A stretch of 62,676 nt of DNA, counting the filler, from Collodictyon triciliatum (Eukaryota): the NCBI GenBank assembly GCA_043381765.1. It is 31 parts of 31 records of this genome, joined end to end, with 100 filler letters (N's around TTAATTAATTAA, not from the genome) between each part and the next. Parts side by side here need not be neighbours in the genome. Positions count along the whole stretch, not along the records: positions 40,760 to 42,664 come from JBHJMP010009937.1; positions 42,765 to 44,669 come from JBHJMP010009938.1; 29 more parts are not named here. One strand, given 5' to 3'. The notes under the pieces were generated by a model, which saw only the letters and a program-made list of their open reading frames with translations, made no database searches and had not been told where the DNA came from. This document shows, one piece after another, positions 6,731-46,340 of the stretch. Every line of letters begins with the position of its first letter. Position 1 is the stretch's first letter. Made by a program: the position numbers and the translations under genes.

Positions 6731-7680
6731 GTTCTGTCTTCGACTCCTTGGTTCTAAGGTCCTCCAGTACGCCGCGTAGTGGATGGAGTCTATCTTATTA
6801 AAAAGTATTTTGGTAAGATTATGAGAAAACTATTCTCAATTGAGATATCAAATTGCAGTGACTTGCCTTTCGCTGTATGATTCCACGCTTTTGTTTTCTT
6901 TGATATGCTACATTTTTATAAAATCACTCAAAGTGGAAGTAAAGTGCAAACCTTATTAATTAAAAATGCACTAATTTGAAGAGAATACATCAATATAAAA
7001 GCGAACATGGTGTCTGCATGTGAAGCAATCATCGCTTGTGCATACGTATGCACGTTTTATTTCTTCGGCTGATTTCATCCGAAAGTCTATCAACACTTGA
7101 ATGCTCCTCAAGTGGTCTTTGTATCCATATGTTAGAATGAATGGAAATGATATAAAGAAGCAAATATTCATAATTATTTTGTAAAAGAACCTTTGAAGTC
7201 AAACTGGTTTATTTTGAAAGTGCTGTCAGTTTGAAAATACTTGCTCCTCATCATCGTATCCGTCCTACAGAGAAAATGGCAATATAAATTATTTTATCAA
7301 TCGCTTATTGGAGTGAAGAAAAATCACCTTGAGCTGTTCTTATCCTGGCCATCTGGTGGTGTGTATAAAAATTTAATGAATATGTTTTGATAAAAACAAC
7401 CATAAATATAGATAATCCTTACACTTGACTCGAAAGTCATCAGGAAAAACACCTGTGTTGATGAAACCTGGATTATGTAAGTTTTCTGAAATGAGCATCC
7501 AGACATCTTCGATAATAATACTTCTAGAAGGTACCTTGCTTCGTCAAAAAATCATGAATCTTGCTGACTGGGTGATATGACATCTACGAAATTTAATTTA
7601 CCAAAATGCAAGAATTCGATAAGCATACATTTATATATTATTTACCTTGGACTCTTGGAAACATTCAGTCTTTGTAAGAA
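6731..7680 (-). CDS. Probable multi-exon gene of unknown function
   Basis: Several short minus-strand segments bounded by AG/GT (e.g. DVWMLISENLHNPGFINTGVFPDDFRVK; DRLHPLRGVLEDLRTKESKTER). No family recognised and the model is unresolved. Confidence 0.35.
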
Positions 7681-28680: not shown

Positions 28681-30148
28681 TATTTCTTCAACACTGTAAT
28701 ATTTTCGGCAGTAAAAAGTCAAAGTCAATTACATTTTTTTGTCATTTGTAACATGGCTGTTTTTTACGCTTTTTCAAATGGTGCTGTAATTACACGACAA
28801 AAAGACGCACACACTTCAAATTAGGCGTGGATAAAACAAGAAGGGCATCAAAAACCCAAAACAAAAAGCCAAAACAAATACAGAAACAAAAAATAACGAA
28901 GAAAAAAAAACCGCGCAATGCAAAGACTCGTGTGTTCTTGTTTTTTCGCAAAAAAGAAAAAAAGTTTATTTACACCAAACACAACACGCCGCGTGTGTAA
29001 ATAACTCTTTCCTTGGCAACACTCTCCCTGTCTTCATCCCTGCATAACTTTGTTGTGACTGTGAACATTTCCCATACCGTTTGAAGTATATCGCCCTCAT
29101 TTGCGTTCGAGAAATAAAAAACACAGGTTATCATGGACAGCAGGAAACTTGCTGGAGAAGGCAGAGANNNNNNNNNNNNNNNNNNNNNNNNNNNNNNNNN
29201 NNNNNNNNNNNNNNNNNNNNNNNNNNNNNNNNNNNNNNNNNNNNNNNNNNNNNNNNNNNNNNNNNNNNNNNNNNNNNNNNNNNNNNNNNNNNNNNNNNNN
29301 NNNNNNNNNNNNNNNNNNNNNNNNNNNNNNNNNNNNNNNNNNNNNNNNNNNNNNNNNNNNNNNNNNNNNNNNNNNNNNNNNNNNNNNNNNNNNNNNNNNN
29401 NNNNNNNNNNNNNNNNNNNNNNNNNNNNNNNNNNNNNNNNNNNNNNNNNNNNNNNNNNNNNNNNNNNNNNNNNNNNNNNNNNNNNNNNNNNNNNNNNNNN
29501 NNNNNNNNNNNNNNNNNNNNNNNNNNNNNNNNNNNNNNNNNNNNNNNNNNNNNNNNNNNNNNNNNNNNNNNNNNNNNNNNNNNNNNNNNNNNNNNNNNNN
29601 NNNNNNNNNNNNNNNNNNNNNNNNNNNNNNNNNNNNNNNNNNNNNNNNNNNNNNNNNNNNNNNNNNNNNNNNNNNNNNNNNNNCGCATAGACTTGATGAA
29701 GTTGAAGAGAATCACCAATCAGGCAAAGACGAGCGACAGCAAAAACGAGGCATTTATATCGAGAACCGCCAGCGGTCTCTGTATCGATTTTTCTCCCCGA
29801 GACCCGACCATGTAAGCTGCCCGGCATTCAAACAGCGAAAGGACACCATTTTATTCCAACATAAGTGCAATGTCCTATTTACTTTTTTATCTTAACCTTT
29901 TTATCTCTTTTTTTTATCTTTTTTTATCTCTTTTTTTATCTCTTTTTTTATCTCTTTTTTTATCTCTTTTTTATCTCTTTTTTTATCTCTTTTTTTATCT
30001 CTTTTTTTATCTCTTTTTTTATCTCTTTTTTTATCTCTTTTTTTATCTNNNNNNNNNNNNNNNNNNNNNNNNNNNNNNNNNNNNNNNNNNNNTTAATTAA
30101 TTAANNNNNNNNNNNNNNNNNNNNNNNNNNNNNNNNNNNNNNNNNNNN

Positions 30149-36130: not shown

Positions 36131-36140
36131 NNNNNNNNNN

Positions 36141-40659: not shown

Positions 40660-43584
40660 NNNNNNNNNNNNNNNNNNNNNNNNNNNNNNNNNNNNNNNNN
40701 NNNTTAATTAATTAANNNNNNNNNNNNNNNNNNNNNNNNNNNNNNNNNNNNNNNNNNNNTTTTTTTTTCTTTTCCTTTTTTTTTCTTTTTTTCTTTTTTC
40801 TTTTTTTCTTTTTTCTTTTTTCTTTTTTCTTTTGTGCACAAGGAATGTCGAGACAAAACAGCAAGGCAAGACTGTCTGTCCTCCCTGTATTGTTGCAAAG
40901 TTGTGTATCCACAAACCAGCGCTGAATAATTTCCGGTTTGGTGCAGCCAATATGTAATATTTTTCTCTCTATTTCGGGTGCATTTATTCTGGACATGTTT
41001 CGATCAGCAACATGTAAGTAATATCATATAATTTGATTACATATTAAACAGACTAGAACTATTCAGTAAACCTGTGATTATATATATTTTATATACTTAT
41101 AAATTCCACATTATATAGATGACGTCACGTTAGCGAAGCATTCCTTATTCCAGAATTATAAATTTTTATTGAATATAAATAACTTAATCTCATTACGGAT
41201 AATACTCTGTCCAATCTTCCAGGTGCTTTGGCCTTTGTTTTGCATCGGGTGCAGGAAATCGCAGAAATACAACCTGCTTGTGAGTGGTTTAGCCTCGATT
41301 GTGTCGTCGAAGGCGCCTGCTCCCTATCATAAAATCAAGGACAGACTCGGTAATCGGGCTCAGCAATACTGTTCTTTTCATTCGTCATCTTTTATTTCGC
41401 TTCCTTTCGTTTTCTTTTCTTTTTCTTTTTCTTTTTTCATTTCTTTTCTTTACTTTTCTTTTTCTTTATTTTTATCTTTTTTCTTTTGTCTTTTTTCTTT
41501 TGTCTTCTTTCTTTTTTCTTTTTTTATGGCCTTTCTTACTCATATCCCAGTGGTACTTTTGTGATTTATTTACATGTTTTCTTCGGTTTTGAATCATGAA
41601 CTAATTTATTAAACAACCAACAAAACTCCCTGTCTTATTCTTCCAGCAGAATGAATCCTATGTTTTCATCTTACATAATACAAAATAAAAACAACAAATA
41701 TAAGAAACAAGCAAACAAACTGACAAAGACGGCTTGCGATTATTGTACATTTTGTTTTCCGCTACACCTCCCTCGCGTTTTGCATTCCATCCCTTCTTGT
41801 ACTGGAGCTAAGAGTATCTGTATAATCCATAAAAAGACCATCGGGTGCTTTATGGGCCGTTCATTACGCTCAAGACACGTTTAATTTCGACTTTAGCGGT
41901 CCTCCTGAACCAAAACAAAGTAACCCATCTCTATGTCTCATTCATTTATTATGTTTCTCACCACTTTAGCTATTCCCATATTGTTCATATCTGCCTGCCT
42001 AGAACAACTCTTAAAAATACACATTTCTTCGAGTAGAACATTTTCCATATTACCTTACTTGGTTGGCACACTACATAACTTTATTTAGAATTAAAAAGAA
42101 ACGAAGGTACCCTCAAGATTTCTTCATAGAAACATATCATCTAATCCCTTGCAATAGAACTGATTAGTTAGCCTAAATGATTGCCTGAGTATTCACATAA
42201 AATCCAAAATATTCTCTAACCTCAAATCAATACTTTAATCACAGGTACAAGAGCTCTCCTATCTCTGGCAATAGAACAGTCTGCATAGTAAATAATTGAA
42301 AAAATTAGTTCGAATTATACAGGACGAAGGTCATATTTTTTTTCATGGTGATAATCAACTGGGTACTTTCAGTAAATCATGGACAACTGATATCTTCCCC
42401 AAAATACACACGGTTTCACGGACTTGCGTTTCACCGCCAGTTTTCGCCATCTCCAAAATTTCACTCTTCACAACCTCCCAAGACATTAAGACACTGTCAA
42501 TTATCACACAATACAGATATTTCCTTTTCAGGGTTTCCCACGAGTCCCATCTACAACATAGACCGTGATATGGTCACTCAACCAAGACAAAGCGAAGATA
42601 AATTTCAACCACAGATTCGACCGCAGCATATGTTAAGCAGACTTCGCTTCATTAATTATCTCAANNNNNNNNNNNNNNNNNNNNNNNNNNNNNNNNNNNN
42701 NNNNNNNNTTAATTAATTAANNNNNNNNNNNNNNNNNNNNNNNNNNNNNNNNNNNNNNNNNNNNAAAGAGAGAAGAAAAGAGAGAAGAAAAGAGAGAAGA
42801 AAAGAGAGAAGAAAAGAGAGAAGAAAAGAGAGAAGAAAAGAGAGAAGAAAAGAGAGAAGAAAAGGAGAAAAGGGTAGATGATGCTGTTTACCTCTAGGTC
42901 GCGGTTAAATTCATGAAAGCGATCCACCATCCCAGTTGTCGTTGCCTTTGGGGTAGTAGCGAAACAGAGAAGCAAGCAGGTATGGTCGTTAGAGAGGGAT
43001 GAAAACATGGCCAAGAGCAAAAAAAGCGACGCTTTTTCATGGGATAGTGGAGACTTTTTGGTATTATCAGCCACTTTCACTTATTGTTTCTACTTCTGAA
43101 GCTCTTGCTTCGTCTTTGAGGTGGGTCTGTGCCGATCACGCGCGATGTCTGTTTCTTTTGAAGTGAAGATTGTCCTTCTGGTGCGGATTTGATTGAATCT
43201 AGGTTCTCTTCGTATGGACATGATATCCACATTTGCACATCGAGATTCTACCCATCTGGATTCCCTTGATCTGGATTCTTTGACTCCTGATGTAACGCAT
43301 CAGGTGTTTCTTCTGGGGGTTTTATGACTTTCGTTGCGAGGTGGGCGATTTGATTGGAGTGGTAGAAGATTTGCATAACAAGAGAGGCATTCAGCCAAAG
43401 ATTGAATAGCTCCAATGTGCCACATATGGTATGTTTTGATATTGTTGTGAGAATATAATTATTTCATACTTGATTTTTCGACAGAATACCCTGAAGGTCG
43501 AATTAGGTTGGTTGTGTGATGAGACTACATGTGTTAATTTATTTTGTTTGGGTCTGCTTATATTGCCTACTAGAATAAGTATAA

Positions 43585-43689
43585 CAATCTTTCGATTGAT
43601 AAACCTGGTCTGCTAGTATCCAAGGTCTCACCACTTTTTTCAAAAAGATTGTGTAGTGTTGAAGGCTGCCAGGAAAGACCCGACAGCCT
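43585..43689 (-). ncRNA. Candidate Fanzor omega-RNA scaffold
   Basis: Four back-to-back hairpins immediately 3' of RuvC-III (43689-43663, 43658-43629, 43628-43601, 43598-43585). They contain G-U pairs on the minus strand and a CAAUC-GAAA-GAUUG tetraloop. Confidence 0.6.
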
Positions 43690-43734
43690 GTTTTTTAAAG
43701 AAAGGTGTATGCATATTTTTAGGATTAAAAGCAC

Positions 43735-44669
43735 TTTCTTGAGTATATTATAAGCGCTGTTTAAGTCCCTTGTCAAGAATACACTTTGCTTGCTTTCTGA
43801 GTGATTGTATTCTTTAAATATGAGACATCTAAACAACTTTTTTGAATTTCCTTTCAGTTTCATATATTCCAGTTCTTTTTCGCAGTTGCAGCACATCTTG
43901 GAGGTTCTAAATTCATCTACACTGATTGTTTCAAACCGTTTGGATAGTATTTTTCGTAATGCACTTCTGATTGTTGGCATAAAATCTTTCATCGGAGATT
44001 TTCTGCTCCAGTTTCCATACGCCAACAACATCCTTGCCAAATGTCTTTTCGATTCCGTTCATAAACAACTGTTCACTTCTTTATGTATTAACATACTGTC
44101 TCCATCTCACCTTTCGAAAAGTTACGTGTTCATAAAATCCGGAAAATTCTATCTGGTATCTTGATTTCATAGATATATATTTTCGAAATTTTTCATAATC
44201 GACCGCGCATGAATTATGTTTATTCCGTTTTGTCTCTAAATCGATTAAAGATGCTCTTGATGTCTCAAACTGCTGATTCTCTTCAAAAAAACCTGAGACC
44301 AAAAGAAATAGCACTTGGTAGATCTGTTGCCGTGCATATCGCTGAAATAATTGTACTTTTTTCTCGCGCAAGAGTATTTTGTAATTTTTAAGAGATTTGC
44401 TTTTATGTCTTGTTTGGCGCGCCGTGCAACGTAATTTCTTACCTGTCCCATCCACCATGTAAACATAATTAAACTTGCCTGCATCAACTATTTTTTTTTT
44501 CACTAATAAAGATAGCTGCTCTTCGGAAAGTTCATCTATACAAACATATTCTTGGTTTTTATTATATTTGTATTGAGATTTTGAATTTGAAATAGCTTTA
44601 TTGTTTTCAAATAATAATGATACCGCCAACTCGTCTGTTTGTATCATGTATTTAAAATTCTAATATCTT
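43735..44669 (-). pseudogene. Fanzor1 (eukaryotic TnpB-family RNA-guided nuclease), decayed and 5' truncated
   Basis: RuvC-I-like KIVDAGKFNYVYMVD, FRKVRWRQY, AYGNWS...MK.FMPT...LRK.L, VDEFRTSKMCCNC, RDLNSAYNI. Stop at 44081, frameshift near 44030, second Zn-finger Cys pair lost. Confidence 0.88.
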
Positions 44670-44769: not shown

Positions 44770-45962
44770 TTTGGACATATAATGCAAGAAGATTTACTAA
44801 TTGAAGCAAAATCAGGATTGAATGTTCCATCTGAGCAAGTTTTGCATTGAACTTGGCTTACTTCATCATTGAAGGTTCCTGGTTCACAATCATTGCAATT
44901 AATATTACTTGTTTTATTACTATATGTACCGGCTGCGCATGAAAGACATGATGATTGACCAGTTAATGGTTGTATGTTCCAGCAGCGCATGAAAGACATG
45001 TTGCTTGTCCAGTTAATTGATTGTATGTACCAGCTGCACATGGATAGCAACTTGCTTGTCTGGTTAATTGATTGTAAGTTCCAGCTGCACATGAAATACA
45101 CGCACTGGAGCTTGTTGAGCCGATGGATGGATTGTACGTTCCAGCTGCGCATGATCTGCAACTTACTTGTCCAGTTAATTGATTGTATGTTCCAGCTGCG
45201 CATGATATACAAGCGCTGGAGCTCGTAGAGCCAATTGATGGATTGTATGTTCCAGCTGCACATGATATACAAGCGTCGGAGCTTGTTGAGCCGATTGATG
45301 GATTGTATGTTCCGGCTGTGCATAAAGAACAAGACGACGTTCCTCCAGCACTATAGCTTCCATATGGGCATAGTTGACAAGACTTTGTGACTGAATCATA
45401 GAACCGACCAGCGACACAAAGTACCCAGATTTTGATTGTATTATCCCAGCTTCCAGAAACAATTTTTGAACCATCAGAAGTAACAGCAACACTGAAAACC
45501 CTATCATTATGACCATTCAATGTGCGAATCAAAGCTCCGTCAGAAAGATTCCAGATTTTGATTGAATTATCATCGCCTCCAGAAACAATTTTTGAACCAT
45601 CAGGAGATACCGCAACACTGTAAACACCGTAAACACCACTAGTATGACCAGTCAATGTGCGAATCAAAGTTCCGTCAGAAAGATTCCAAATTTTGATTGA
45701 ATTATCATCACCTCCAGAAATAACTTTTGTGCCATCAGGAGTTACAGCAACACTCCAAACATCATTAGTATGACCAGTCAATGTACGAATCAAATTATCT
45801 TGCCCTTCAACAAGACACATTTGGCAGTGGAGCATCAATCCTAAAAATATATCAATTAAAATTCTATGTATTTTGAAGTCAATAAAGTTAAAACAATTAA
45901 AGTATCATTAATAACTCACCCAACAGCAACAAAGCTGCAAAAGTCTTTAAATTCCATCTCAT
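44770..45962 (-). CDS. Signal peptide + 3 WD40 repeats + Cys-rich (GCC2/GCC3-like) repeats; 1-nt frameshift near 44967; 3' truncated
   Basis: Exon 45962-45920 and phase-1 intron 45919-45841 give MRWNLKTFAALLLLGLMLHCQMCLVEG-QDNLIRTLTGH. Then three GH...IKIW repeats and CxSCAAGTYN repeats. Confidence 0.85.
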
Positions 45963-46298: not shown

Positions 46299-46340
46299 TG
46301 ATATCAATATATACTTAATATTAAGTATATATTGATATCA
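46299..46340. repeat. Perfect 42-bp palindrome with no spacer
   Basis: TGATATCAATATATACTTAAT|ATTAAGTATATATTGATATCA. Confidence 0.95.

What the first reader, a model, noticed from the sequence alone, without database searches (positions are those of the whole stretch)
43556..43689. Four contiguous hairpins behind the Fanzor RuvC-III motif: a candidate omega-RNA scaffold
Seen on the minus strand: AGGCUGUCGGG-ucuuu-CCUGGCAGCCU (11 bp, 2 G-U); CACUA..CUUUU-ugaa-AAAAG-UGGUG; AGACCuUGG..CCAGGUUU; CAAUC-GAAA-GAUUG. They are separated by 0-4 nt. The wobble pairs and the GNRA loop work only on the Fanzor-coding strand. Established: Fanzor/TnpB omega-RNAs overlap or follow the ORF 3' end and take their guide from the flank. 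Inference: the element end lies near 43580 and the next 15-20 nt (about 43579-43560) would be the guide.
Basis: partly seen in the sequence, partly recalled or inferred. Interest (0 to 1): 0.7.

Follow-up and report, generated by a model that had tools for sequence, protein, structure and literature searches.

The report
Likely guide-RNA relic, dead Fanzor1 gene
A strong RNA hairpin and three weaker ones sit at the end of a broken Fanzor1 nuclease gene, where such genes normally encode their guide RNA, so this is probably the fossil of a known kind of RNA, and its proposed end and guide are not supported.

Summary
The four hairpins exist at the stated coordinates on the minus strand. Only the first part stands out. 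Hairpin 1 (43663-43689) with hairpin 2 folds far better than shuffles (z -4.74, 0 of 200). The hairpin 3-4 part does not (z -1.2 to -1.45).

The window is a chain of about 30 short contigs. This contig (42765-44669) holds a 5'-truncated, dead Fanzor1 gene with at least three frame breaks and two lost zinc-ligand cysteines.

Full-length relatives show that the original reading frame ended at TGA 43642-43640. Hairpin 1 therefore lies in the last 16 codons, and hairpins 3-4 lie behind the stop.

Giant-virus and metagenome relatives carry a conserved, covarying RNA module at the same place, with a sharp conservation drop. The window does not match it above noise with covariance or HMM models. No DNA of close relatives and no reads could be examined.

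The omega-RNA reading is plausible (about 0.5) but unproven. An element end near 43580 and a guide at 43579-43560 are unsupported: the folds pair part of that "guide" into a stem.

The scan has already noted dead Fanzor1 copies in this genome and Fanzor1 guide-RNA scaffolds in giant-virus DNA. This is an ordinary member of a known kind.

The parts
42765..44669 (.). The single short contig (1905 bp) that holds the finding. It is bounded on both sides by the spacer N44-TTAATTAATTAA-N44.
   Evidence: 30 such spacers at about 2-kb steps, with pieces of falling length. Features beyond a spacer are not neighbours.
43640..44659 (-). Dead Fanzor1 gene, cut at the 5' end by the contig end. It starts at residue 305 of the 648-aa relative P0001. 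It is read in four frame pieces: 44659-44081, about 44080-44030, 44058 to about 43714, and 43711-43640.
   Evidence: 50% identity (piece 1) and 70-71% identity (piece 3) to P0001 and P0050. P0001 matches solved Fanzor1 structures. Pfam Cas12f1-like TNB domain, E 2.7e-5, below the cut-off.
43744..43770 (-). RuvC-III motif codons (RDLNSAYNI)
43712..43713 (-). Approximate place of the third frame break. Two bases stand where relatives have one codon between ...LKI and HT....
   Evidence: Three-frame translation read against the tails of P0001 and P0050.
43663..43689 (-). Hairpin 1: 11-bp stem (2 G-U) with a 5-nt loop, inside the codons QAVGSFLAAF of the original reading frame. It is the candidate first stem-loop of the omega-RNA.
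   Evidence: z -4.74 together with hairpin 2; the only G+C-rich hairpin of 11 bp or more in the window. Model R2 aligns it to helix A of relatives.
43640..43642 (-). TGA that ended the original reading frame (...NTTQSF*)
   Evidence: frame 1, read against P0001 and P0050.
43629..43658 (-). Hairpin 2: CACUAC/GUGGUG with an inner U/A run. It spans the original stop codon.
   Evidence: In the 261-nt fold its 3' arm pairs elsewhere.
43601..43628 (-). Hairpin 3 as proposed. It is not the preferred fold.
   Evidence: It forms only in the shortest (48-nt) fold. Its stretch has z -1.22 to -1.45.
43585..43598 (-). Hairpin 4: CAAUC-GAAA-GAUUG
   Evidence: Predicted in every fold, but its stretch is not above shuffles.
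43568..43618 (-). Alternative closing stem, UACUAG (43618-43613) with CUAGUA (43573-43568), enclosing hairpin 4.
   Evidence: R2 aligns it to helix P1 of relatives.
43516..43634 (-). Alternative long-range stem, GUGGUGAGAC (43634-43625) with GUCUCAUCAC (43525-43516). It has 10 bp, 1 of them G-U. It is a possible but unproven later end of the structure.
   Evidence: 261-nt fold, z -2.86, 3 of 200 shuffles as good. By my rough estimate a stem of this size is expected about 0.3 times by chance.

Best explanation
The hairpin cluster, above all hairpin 1, is most likely the remnant of the omega-RNA scaffold of a now dead Fanzor1 element.

In the intact ancestor, the 3' part of the Fanzor transcript would have folded into a first stem-loop (hairpin 1) and further stem-loops behind the stop. 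This part starts about 16 codons before the stop. The Fanzor1 protein would have bound this scaffold. The 15-20 nt transcribed from just beyond the element's right end would have served as the guide for cutting matching DNA.

Shown here:
- The hairpins are present.
- Hairpin 1 stands out statistically.
- The cluster works only on the coding strand.
- It sits across the end of the original reading frame.
- Relatives hold a conserved, covarying module with a sharp end at that place.

Inferred: that the window's hairpins are that RNA.

The 3' end of the scaffold and the guide cannot be placed. The end is more likely at or beyond about 43562 than at 43580. In this copy the nuclease is dead, so the RNA has no partner of its own.
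For: 1. Gene identity. The ORF pieces are 50% and 70% identical to the full-length protein P0001. P0001 matches the solved Fanzor1 structures GtFz1 (E 2e-28), PpFz1 and SpuFz1.

2. Position. The tails of P0001 (...LFKKQAVGYSSTALTVTHKRMRM) and P0050 (...LFKKQAVGFHSAACMVTHRNM) match the window's third frame (...FFKKQAVGSFLAAFNTTQSF*). Hairpin 1 therefore lies in the last 16 codons and the stop lies in hairpin 2. Published Fanzor1 omega-RNAs lie just there (PMC10432273, PMC10711439, PMC11423790; passages read).

3. Statistics.
- Whole stretch: z -3.42 on the coding strand against -1.05 on the other.
- Hairpins 1-2: z -4.74, 0 of 200 shuffles as good.
- 38 of 5486 background windows fold as well after G+C correction.
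- Hairpin 1 is one of 5 hairpins of 11 bp or more in the window, and the only G+C-rich one.

4. Relatives. Of 160 fetched loci, 148 were usable.
- 145 of 148 carry the 5' motif and 131 of 148 carry the 3' motif of one module.
- The long stem has compensatory changes in 6 of 12 pairs.
- In the 12 closest loci, five helices give 85.7% paired cells against 73.4% in shuffles. 23 of 39 pairs have double changes, against 4-10 in slid controls.
- Information content falls from 1.5-2.0 bits to 0.39 or less within 2 nt after GGTGTAA (103 unique sequences).
- The module keeps its sequence whether it lies before or after the stop codon.
- Its first helix A (12 bp, G+C-rich) starts 64 nt after the start of the RuvC-III motif. 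Hairpin 1 starts 81 nt after it.

5. Model R2, built from the 12 closest loci, has its best hit on the contig exactly at 43562-43699 on the minus strand: 10.6 bits, E 0.008 for the contig.

6. At the codon positions fixed by the amino acids, P0001 and P0050 can keep pairs 3, 4, 6 and 7 of hairpin 1. Ala to Thr would turn a U-G pair into U-A. This is inference, because the codons were not seen.
Against: - Hairpins 3 and 4 are not above chance, and hairpin 3 is not in the preferred folds.
- The core model R1 finds nothing on the contig (best E 1.3, wrong strand). nhmmer with the 12 closest loci finds nothing there.
- The R2 hit is at noise level over the whole window: E 0.26, second of 12. The best hit, at 6970-7063, is an unrelated palindrome behind an A-run. 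The R2 hit therefore mostly restates that hairpin 1 is a strong hairpin.
- Model R3, which is R2 without helix A, gives only 4.4 bits at the place, third on the contig.
- By protein alignment hairpin 1 is not at the same codons as helix A. The shared Gly codon ends the 3' arm of helix A but ends the 5' arm of hairpin 1.
- The gene is dead: at least three frame breaks, two invariant cysteines replaced (C587 to F, C590 to Y in P0001 numbering), and a 2-residue gap beside the RuvC-I aspartate.
- No second copy, no DNA of the closest relatives and no RNA data could be examined.
Confidence: 0.5

Rival explanations
1. Hairpin 1 is a real, stable hairpin but not a guide-RNA scaffold. It could be a chance or codon-driven feature of the C-terminal coding sequence, or an mRNA-level element. 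Hairpins 2-4 would be ordinary chance pairings in A+T-rich DNA.
For: - Hairpins 3-4 fold no better than shuffles.
- No model or HMM of relatives matches above noise.
- Several other places in the window, roughly 15-20 by my reading, fold as well after G+C correction.
- An unrelated palindrome at 6970-7063 scores higher with R2.
- The peptide KKQAVG is conserved in P0001 and P0050, so protein constraint could keep the 5' arm.
Against: - Only 5 hairpins of this size occur in the window, and this is the only G+C-rich one. By my rough estimate, the chance that one falls within 100 nt of the end of the only Fanzor gene is about 0.004.
- It works on the coding strand only.
- Relatives have a covarying 12-bp hairpin in the same part of the gene.
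Confidence: 0.3
2. The inverted repeats act as DNA. They would be subterminal or terminal repeats of the transposon's right end, recognised by a transposase, and not an RNA structure.
For: - In Fanzor1 elements the terminal inverted repeat is itself part of the scaffold region (PMC10711439, passages read).
- In relatives, the conserved 3' strand ending in GGTGTAA sits at the conservation boundary.
- Earlier notes of this scan on giant-virus DNA describe the same (e1-5558743, e1-5599575). These are leads only.
Against: - Hairpin 1 has two G-U pairs, which are mismatches in DNA and on the other strand.
- It lies inside the coding sequence, about 100 nt or more from any plausible element end.
- The left end is missing, so no terminal repeat can be shown.
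Confidence: 0.1
3. The hairpins mark the end of the transcript, as a hairpin signal for 3'-end formation like the one giant viruses use. Most relatives of this gene are in giant viruses.
For: - Most of the 80 viral loci fetched are giant-virus bins.
Against: - Hairpin 1 lies before the original stop codon and is G+C-rich.
- Nothing marks the contig as viral.
Confidence: 0.05

Closest known systems
GtFz1 omega-RNA (Guillardia theta Fanzor1; PDB 9cer; PMC10432273 and PMC11423790, passages read)
   Same: - GtFz1 is the best solved match of the window's closest full-length relative.
- Its RNA is about 150 nt, with a first stem-loop and three more.
- It overlaps 17 C-terminal codons. Here there are four candidate hairpins, and the first overlaps the last 16 codons.
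   Different: - No sequence comparison with the GtFz1 RNA was made.
- Here the RNA, its ends and its guide are not shown.
- Two of the four hairpins are not above chance.
- The nuclease is dead.
3' module of giant-virus and metagenome Fanzor1 loci (L001-L160), the kind of scaffold described for SpuFz1 and SfAV Fanzor1 (PMC10432273, PMC10711439, passages read)
   Same: - Same gene family (36-47% identity to P0001).
- Same place and strand.
- A G+C-rich first hairpin of 11-12 bp in the C-terminal codons, followed by further helices.
   Different: - The window shares no sequence or model match with it above noise.
- Hairpin 1 is shifted by about one helix arm relative to the protein alignment.
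- The relatives' sharp conservation boundary has no testable counterpart here.
Ghost omega-RNA loci of Spizellomyces punctatus (PMC10432273, passages read)
   Same: A scaffold without a working nuclease gene of its own, which could only act with a protein made elsewhere.
   Different: - Ghost loci are conserved, expressed and shown to be active.
- Here the gene remnant is still attached, and nothing shows expression or an intact partner.

Membership tests
Fanzor1 (eukaryotic/viral TnpB-like RNA-guided nuclease) | Sequence similarity to established Fanzor1 proteins | tested here: met
   The ORF pieces are 50% and 70% identical to P0001. P0001 matches GtFz1 at E 2.1e-28, PpFz1 at 2.7e-24 and SpuFz1 at 3.7e-23.
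Fanzor1 (eukaryotic/viral TnpB-like RNA-guided nuclease) | RuvC-I Asp, RuvC-II Glu and RuvC-III Asp present | tested here: met
   VDAGKFN, VDEFRTSK and RDLNSAYNI are present. Two residues are missing beside the RuvC-I Asp, and the invariant Pro is Ala.
Fanzor1 (eukaryotic/viral TnpB-like RNA-guided nuclease) | Zinc-finger cysteines of the TNB domain | tested here: not met
   The second pair is lost. Relatives read RCLICKEC and the window reads RCLIFKEY. C587 and C590 are invariant in 31 family members.
Fanzor1 (eukaryotic/viral TnpB-like RNA-guided nuclease) | One intact, full-length reading frame | tested here: not met
   There are at least three frame breaks. The first 304 residues are missing at the contig end. 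This is a pseudogene of the family, not a working member.
Fanzor1 omega-RNA (reRNA) | Encoded on the nuclease strand at or overlapping the 3' end of the ORF | tested here: met
   hairpin 1 lies in the last 16 codons, and hairpins 3-4 lie behind the original stop.
Fanzor1 omega-RNA (reRNA) | Stable stem-loops, with a first stem-loop plus at least one more | tested here: inconclusive
   Hairpins 1-2 have z -4.74. The hairpin 3-4 stretch has z -1.2 to -1.45.
Fanzor1 omega-RNA (reRNA) | Conserved among copies, with a sharp drop at the scaffold/guide boundary, and covarying stems | not testable with these tools
   - No whole genome is held, and there is no second copy in the window.
- The closest relatives are known only as proteins.
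- None was found in the viral or genome collections.
- In more distant relatives the feature is met.
Fanzor1 omega-RNA (reRNA) | Match to the scaffold of related Fanzor1 loci | tested here: not met
   - R1: no hit.
- nhmmer: no hit.
- R2: 10.6 bits at the place, but E 0.26 and second rank over the window.
- R3: 4.4 bits.
Fanzor1 scaffolds beyond the first stem-loop are reported to vary freely (PMC11423790, passage read), so this weakens the homology claim, not the function claim.
Fanzor1 omega-RNA (reRNA) | Small RNA made, with a variable 3' guide of about 15-21 nt from beyond the element end | not testable with these tools
   No read data could be examined. The element end cannot be placed on one copy.

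The most novel reading that the evidence does not exclude
The small clade formed by this copy, P0001 and P0050 may use an omega-RNA scaffold that has turned over completely relative to its giant-virus cousins. It would share no detectable sequence, and its first stem-loop would be re-seated about one helix arm further down the C-terminal codons. Dead copies like this one might still supply scaffold-plus-guide RNAs in trans to an intact paralogue, as ghost loci do in Spizellomyces.
Probability: 0.12. Interest if true: 0.45.

Novelty: new member of a known kind. Interest (0 to 1): 0.25.

Why it matters
If confirmed, this would add one more, decayed, example of the known Fanzor1 design, in which the guide-RNA scaffold overlaps the end of the nuclease gene. 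It would come from a little-sampled clade found in a freshwater eukaryote. That gives modest value for mapping how fast Fanzor scaffolds diverge from those of giant-virus relatives. It opens no new question and offers no working nuclease.

The practical lessons are two. The window is a chain of unrelated short contigs, so features on either side of a spacer are not neighbours. A guide position read off a single copy is not reliable.

Tried and rejected
- Whole-genome search: no genome is held for this window.
- Second copy in the window: none by blastn or tblastn.
- Sequencing runs: the six rows listed are small-share holders (5-12% of the words). Five are freshwater or lake metagenomes and one is a coded organism guessed to be RNA. 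No holder is on record as RNA.
- Closer DNA relatives:
  - P0001 as query found none in the genome or viral collections.
  - A back-translated FKKQAVG pattern gave 16 viral hits. None encodes a Fanzor.
  - The metagenome scan's best match was 47% identical to P0001.
- Rfam: only sub-threshold chance matches, the best being MIR5225 at 21.7 bits against a cut-off of 72.
- blastn of the tail against all 176 loci: nothing below E 0.3.
- A MAFFT alignment suggested that hairpin 3-4 equals helix B plus the CAATC..GATT motif of relatives, and that a 3' block near 43460-43500 equals their GTCGGCG...GGTGTAAAA. I rejected this as unsupported because nhmmer and R3 give no score above noise.
- Earlier scan notes looked up by sequence: no look-alike stretches.
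- Pfam on P0001, P0050 and the first ORF piece: no family in the local copy.
Full report
**What the window is.** The window contains 30 spacers of the form N44-TTAATTAATTAA-N44 at steps of about 2 kb. It is therefore a chain of short unplaced contigs, sorted by falling length. The finding lies on one contig of 1905 bp, window 42765-44669. The WD40/cysteine-repeat ORF at 44963-45904 is on another contig and is not a neighbour. No whole genome is held for this window.

**The gene.** On the minus strand the contig carries a Fanzor1-type gene, cut at its 5' end by the contig end.
- The first ORF piece (44659-44081) aligns to residues 305-497 of the 648-aa metagenome protein P0001 at 50% identity.
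- The piece 44058 to about 43714 aligns to residues 516-621 at 70% identity, and to P0050 at 71%.
- P0001 matches the solved Fanzor1 proteins GtFz1 (E 2.1e-28), PpFz1 and SpuFz1.
- The copy is dead. The stretch RSEQLFMNGIEKTFGKD sits in a third frame between the two pieces, which gives two frame breaks. A further break lies near 43713-43712.
- Two cysteines that are invariant in 31 family members are replaced: RCLICKEC in relatives, RCLIFKEY here.
- Two residues are missing next to the RuvC-I aspartate.

**Where the gene really ended.** The tails of the two closest proteins are ...LFKKQAVGYSSTALTVTHKRMRM (P0001) and ...LFKKQAVGFHSAACMVTHRNM (P0050).
- The window reads ...FFKKQAVGSFLAAFNTTQSF* in the frame that follows the third break. 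The original frame therefore ended at TGA 43642-43640.
- The TAG at 43572-43570, which closes the table-11 ORF, is not the original stop.
- Hairpin 1 therefore lies in the last 16 codons (QAVGSFLAAF...). Hairpin 2 spans the stop. Hairpins 3 and 4 lie behind it.

**The observation.** All four hairpins are present as described, 4, 0 and 2 nt apart.

| Stretch folded (minus strand unless noted) | Energy, kcal/mol | z-score | Shuffles as good |
|---|---|---|---|
| 134 nt | -39.5 | -3.42 | 1 of 200 |
| 134 nt, plus strand | -28.4 | -1.05 | 27 of 200 |
| Hairpins 1-2 | -25.6 | -4.74 | 0 of 200 |
| Hairpins 3-4 with flank | -14.4 | -1.45 | 16 of 200 |
| Hairpins 3-4 without flank | -8.6 | -1.22 | 26 of 200 |

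- The signal is not spread evenly: the hairpin 3-4 stretch is not above shuffles.
- In the preferred folds hairpin 3 gives way to a stem, UACUAG (43618-43613) with CUAGUA (43573-43568), that encloses hairpin 4.
- In a 261-nt fold the 3' arm of hairpin 2 instead pairs with 43525-43516. That stem has 10 bp, and the fold has z -2.86.
- Against the window itself, 38 of 5486 windows of 134 nt fold as well after G+C correction.
- Only 5 places have an uninterrupted hairpin of 11 bp or more. Hairpin 1 is the only one that is not A+T-rich.

**Relatives.** The protein family is large (48 proteins). The metagenome and viral collections gave 160 loci, mostly giant-virus bins, at 36-47% identity to P0001.
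- I dropped 12 loci whose sequence after RuvC-III was too short, held N or had no stop. 148 were left.
- 145 of 148 carry TTGATTTTAC-type sequence, and 131 of 148 carry AAATGTTCAAAGGTGTAAAA-type sequence 40-60 nt further on.
- From 40 representatives at 90% similarity or less, I aligned 37. I dropped L004 (wrongly delimited), L023 (a long insertion) and L089 (no 5' motif). The two blocks form a long stem with compensatory changes in 6 of 12 pairs.
- In the 12 loci closest to P0001, five helices give 85.7% paired cells against 73.4% in shuffles. 23 of 39 pairs have changes on both sides, against 4-10 in slid controls. One helix is a 12-bp G+C-rich hairpin in the C-terminal codons. I took the structure from one member's fold, which favours it.
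- The module keeps its nucleotides whether the stop codon lies before or after it.
- Its information content falls from 1.5-2.0 bits to 0.39 or less within 2 nt after GGTGTAA (103 unique sequences of 148).
- This is the published Fanzor1 pattern: a conserved scaffold at the right end, followed by a variable guide (PMC10432273, PMC10530073, PMC10711439; passages read).
- Earlier notes of this scan describe the same on other giant-virus DNA. I used them as leads only.

**Does the window match that module?** It does not match above noise.
- The core model R1 has no hit on the contig and none near it over the window.
- nhmmer with the 12 closest loci finds nothing there.
- Model R2 (12 loci, five helices) has its best contig hit exactly at 43562-43699 on the minus strand: 10.6 bits, E 0.008. 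It aligns helix A to hairpin 1, helix B to hairpin 2 and helix P1 to the UACUAG/CUAGUA stem.
- Over the whole window that hit has E 0.26 and ranks second. The first is an unrelated palindrome behind an A-run at 6970-7063.
- Without helix A (model R3) the place scores 4.4 bits, third on the contig.
- The R2 hit therefore mainly restates that hairpin 1 is a strong hairpin.
- By protein alignment hairpin 1 also sits about one helix arm further downstream than helix A.

**Clade-level hint.** At the codon positions fixed by the amino acids, P0001 and P0050 can keep pairs 3, 4, 6 and 7 of hairpin 1. With UCN serine codons they can also keep pairs 9 and 10. Ala to Thr would change a U-G pair to U-A. 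This shows compatibility and is not evidence, because I could not see their DNA.

**What could not be done.**
- No DNA of the P0001/P0050 clade could be obtained.
- No read data could be examined.
- The left end of the element is missing. Conservation drop, covariation in this clade, expression, terminal repeats and the guide therefore remain untested.

**Verdict.** Hairpin 1 is real and unusual. It sits where Fanzor1 genes encode the first stem-loop of their guide RNA, and GtFz1's RNA likewise overlaps 17 codons and has four stem-loops (PMC10432273, PMC11423790; passages read). I rate the omega-RNA relic reading at about 0.5.
- The claims that four hairpins make up the scaffold, that the element ends near 43580 and that 43579-43560 is the guide are not supported.
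- The folds and the one model alignment put part of that stretch into a closing stem. They place any end at about 43562 or later.
- The gene is dead, and the kind of system is well known.

Noticed in passing
window 1913-60778 (30 spacers): The window is a chain of about 30 contigs of 1.9-2.0 kb joined by N44-TTAATTAATTAA-N44. There is also a 516-N gap at 29168-29683 and a 10-N gap at 36131-36140. Apparent neighbours across spacers are artefacts.
   Followed up: yes
L001-L160, about 60-230 nt after the RuvC-III codons: Giant-virus and metagenome Fanzor1 loci share a covarying 3' module (TTGATTTTAC ... GGTGTAAAA). Conservation drops sharply 1-2 nt after GGTGTAA. In some loci the stop codon lies upstream, yet the nucleotides are kept.
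   Followed up: yes
window 46299-46340: A 42-nt A+T-rich palindrome with a stem of up to 19 bp. It is the longest hairpin in the window.
   Followed up: no
window 44963-45904 (minus strand, a different contig): An ORF with WD40 repeats followed by ephrin-receptor-like cysteine-rich repeats (Pfam WD40 E 4.9e-35, Ephrin_rec_like E 1.2e-22). It is cut by both contig ends.
   Followed up: partly
window 6970-7063 (minus strand): A 16-nt perfect palindrome (GTGCATACGTATGCAC) behind an A-run. It gave the top chance hit of the Fanzor scaffold model R2.
   Followed up: partly
window 42765 to about 42830: The contig ends in a pyrimidine-rich microsatellite, read as (CTTTT/CTCTT)n on the minus strand.
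   Followed up: no
P0051 (136 aa): A short predicted protein 63% identical to the window's third ORF piece. It keeps the RCLICKEC zinc-finger motif but loses similarity to the family tail right after the RuvC-III motif, so it probably comes from another decayed copy of the same family.
   Followed up: partly
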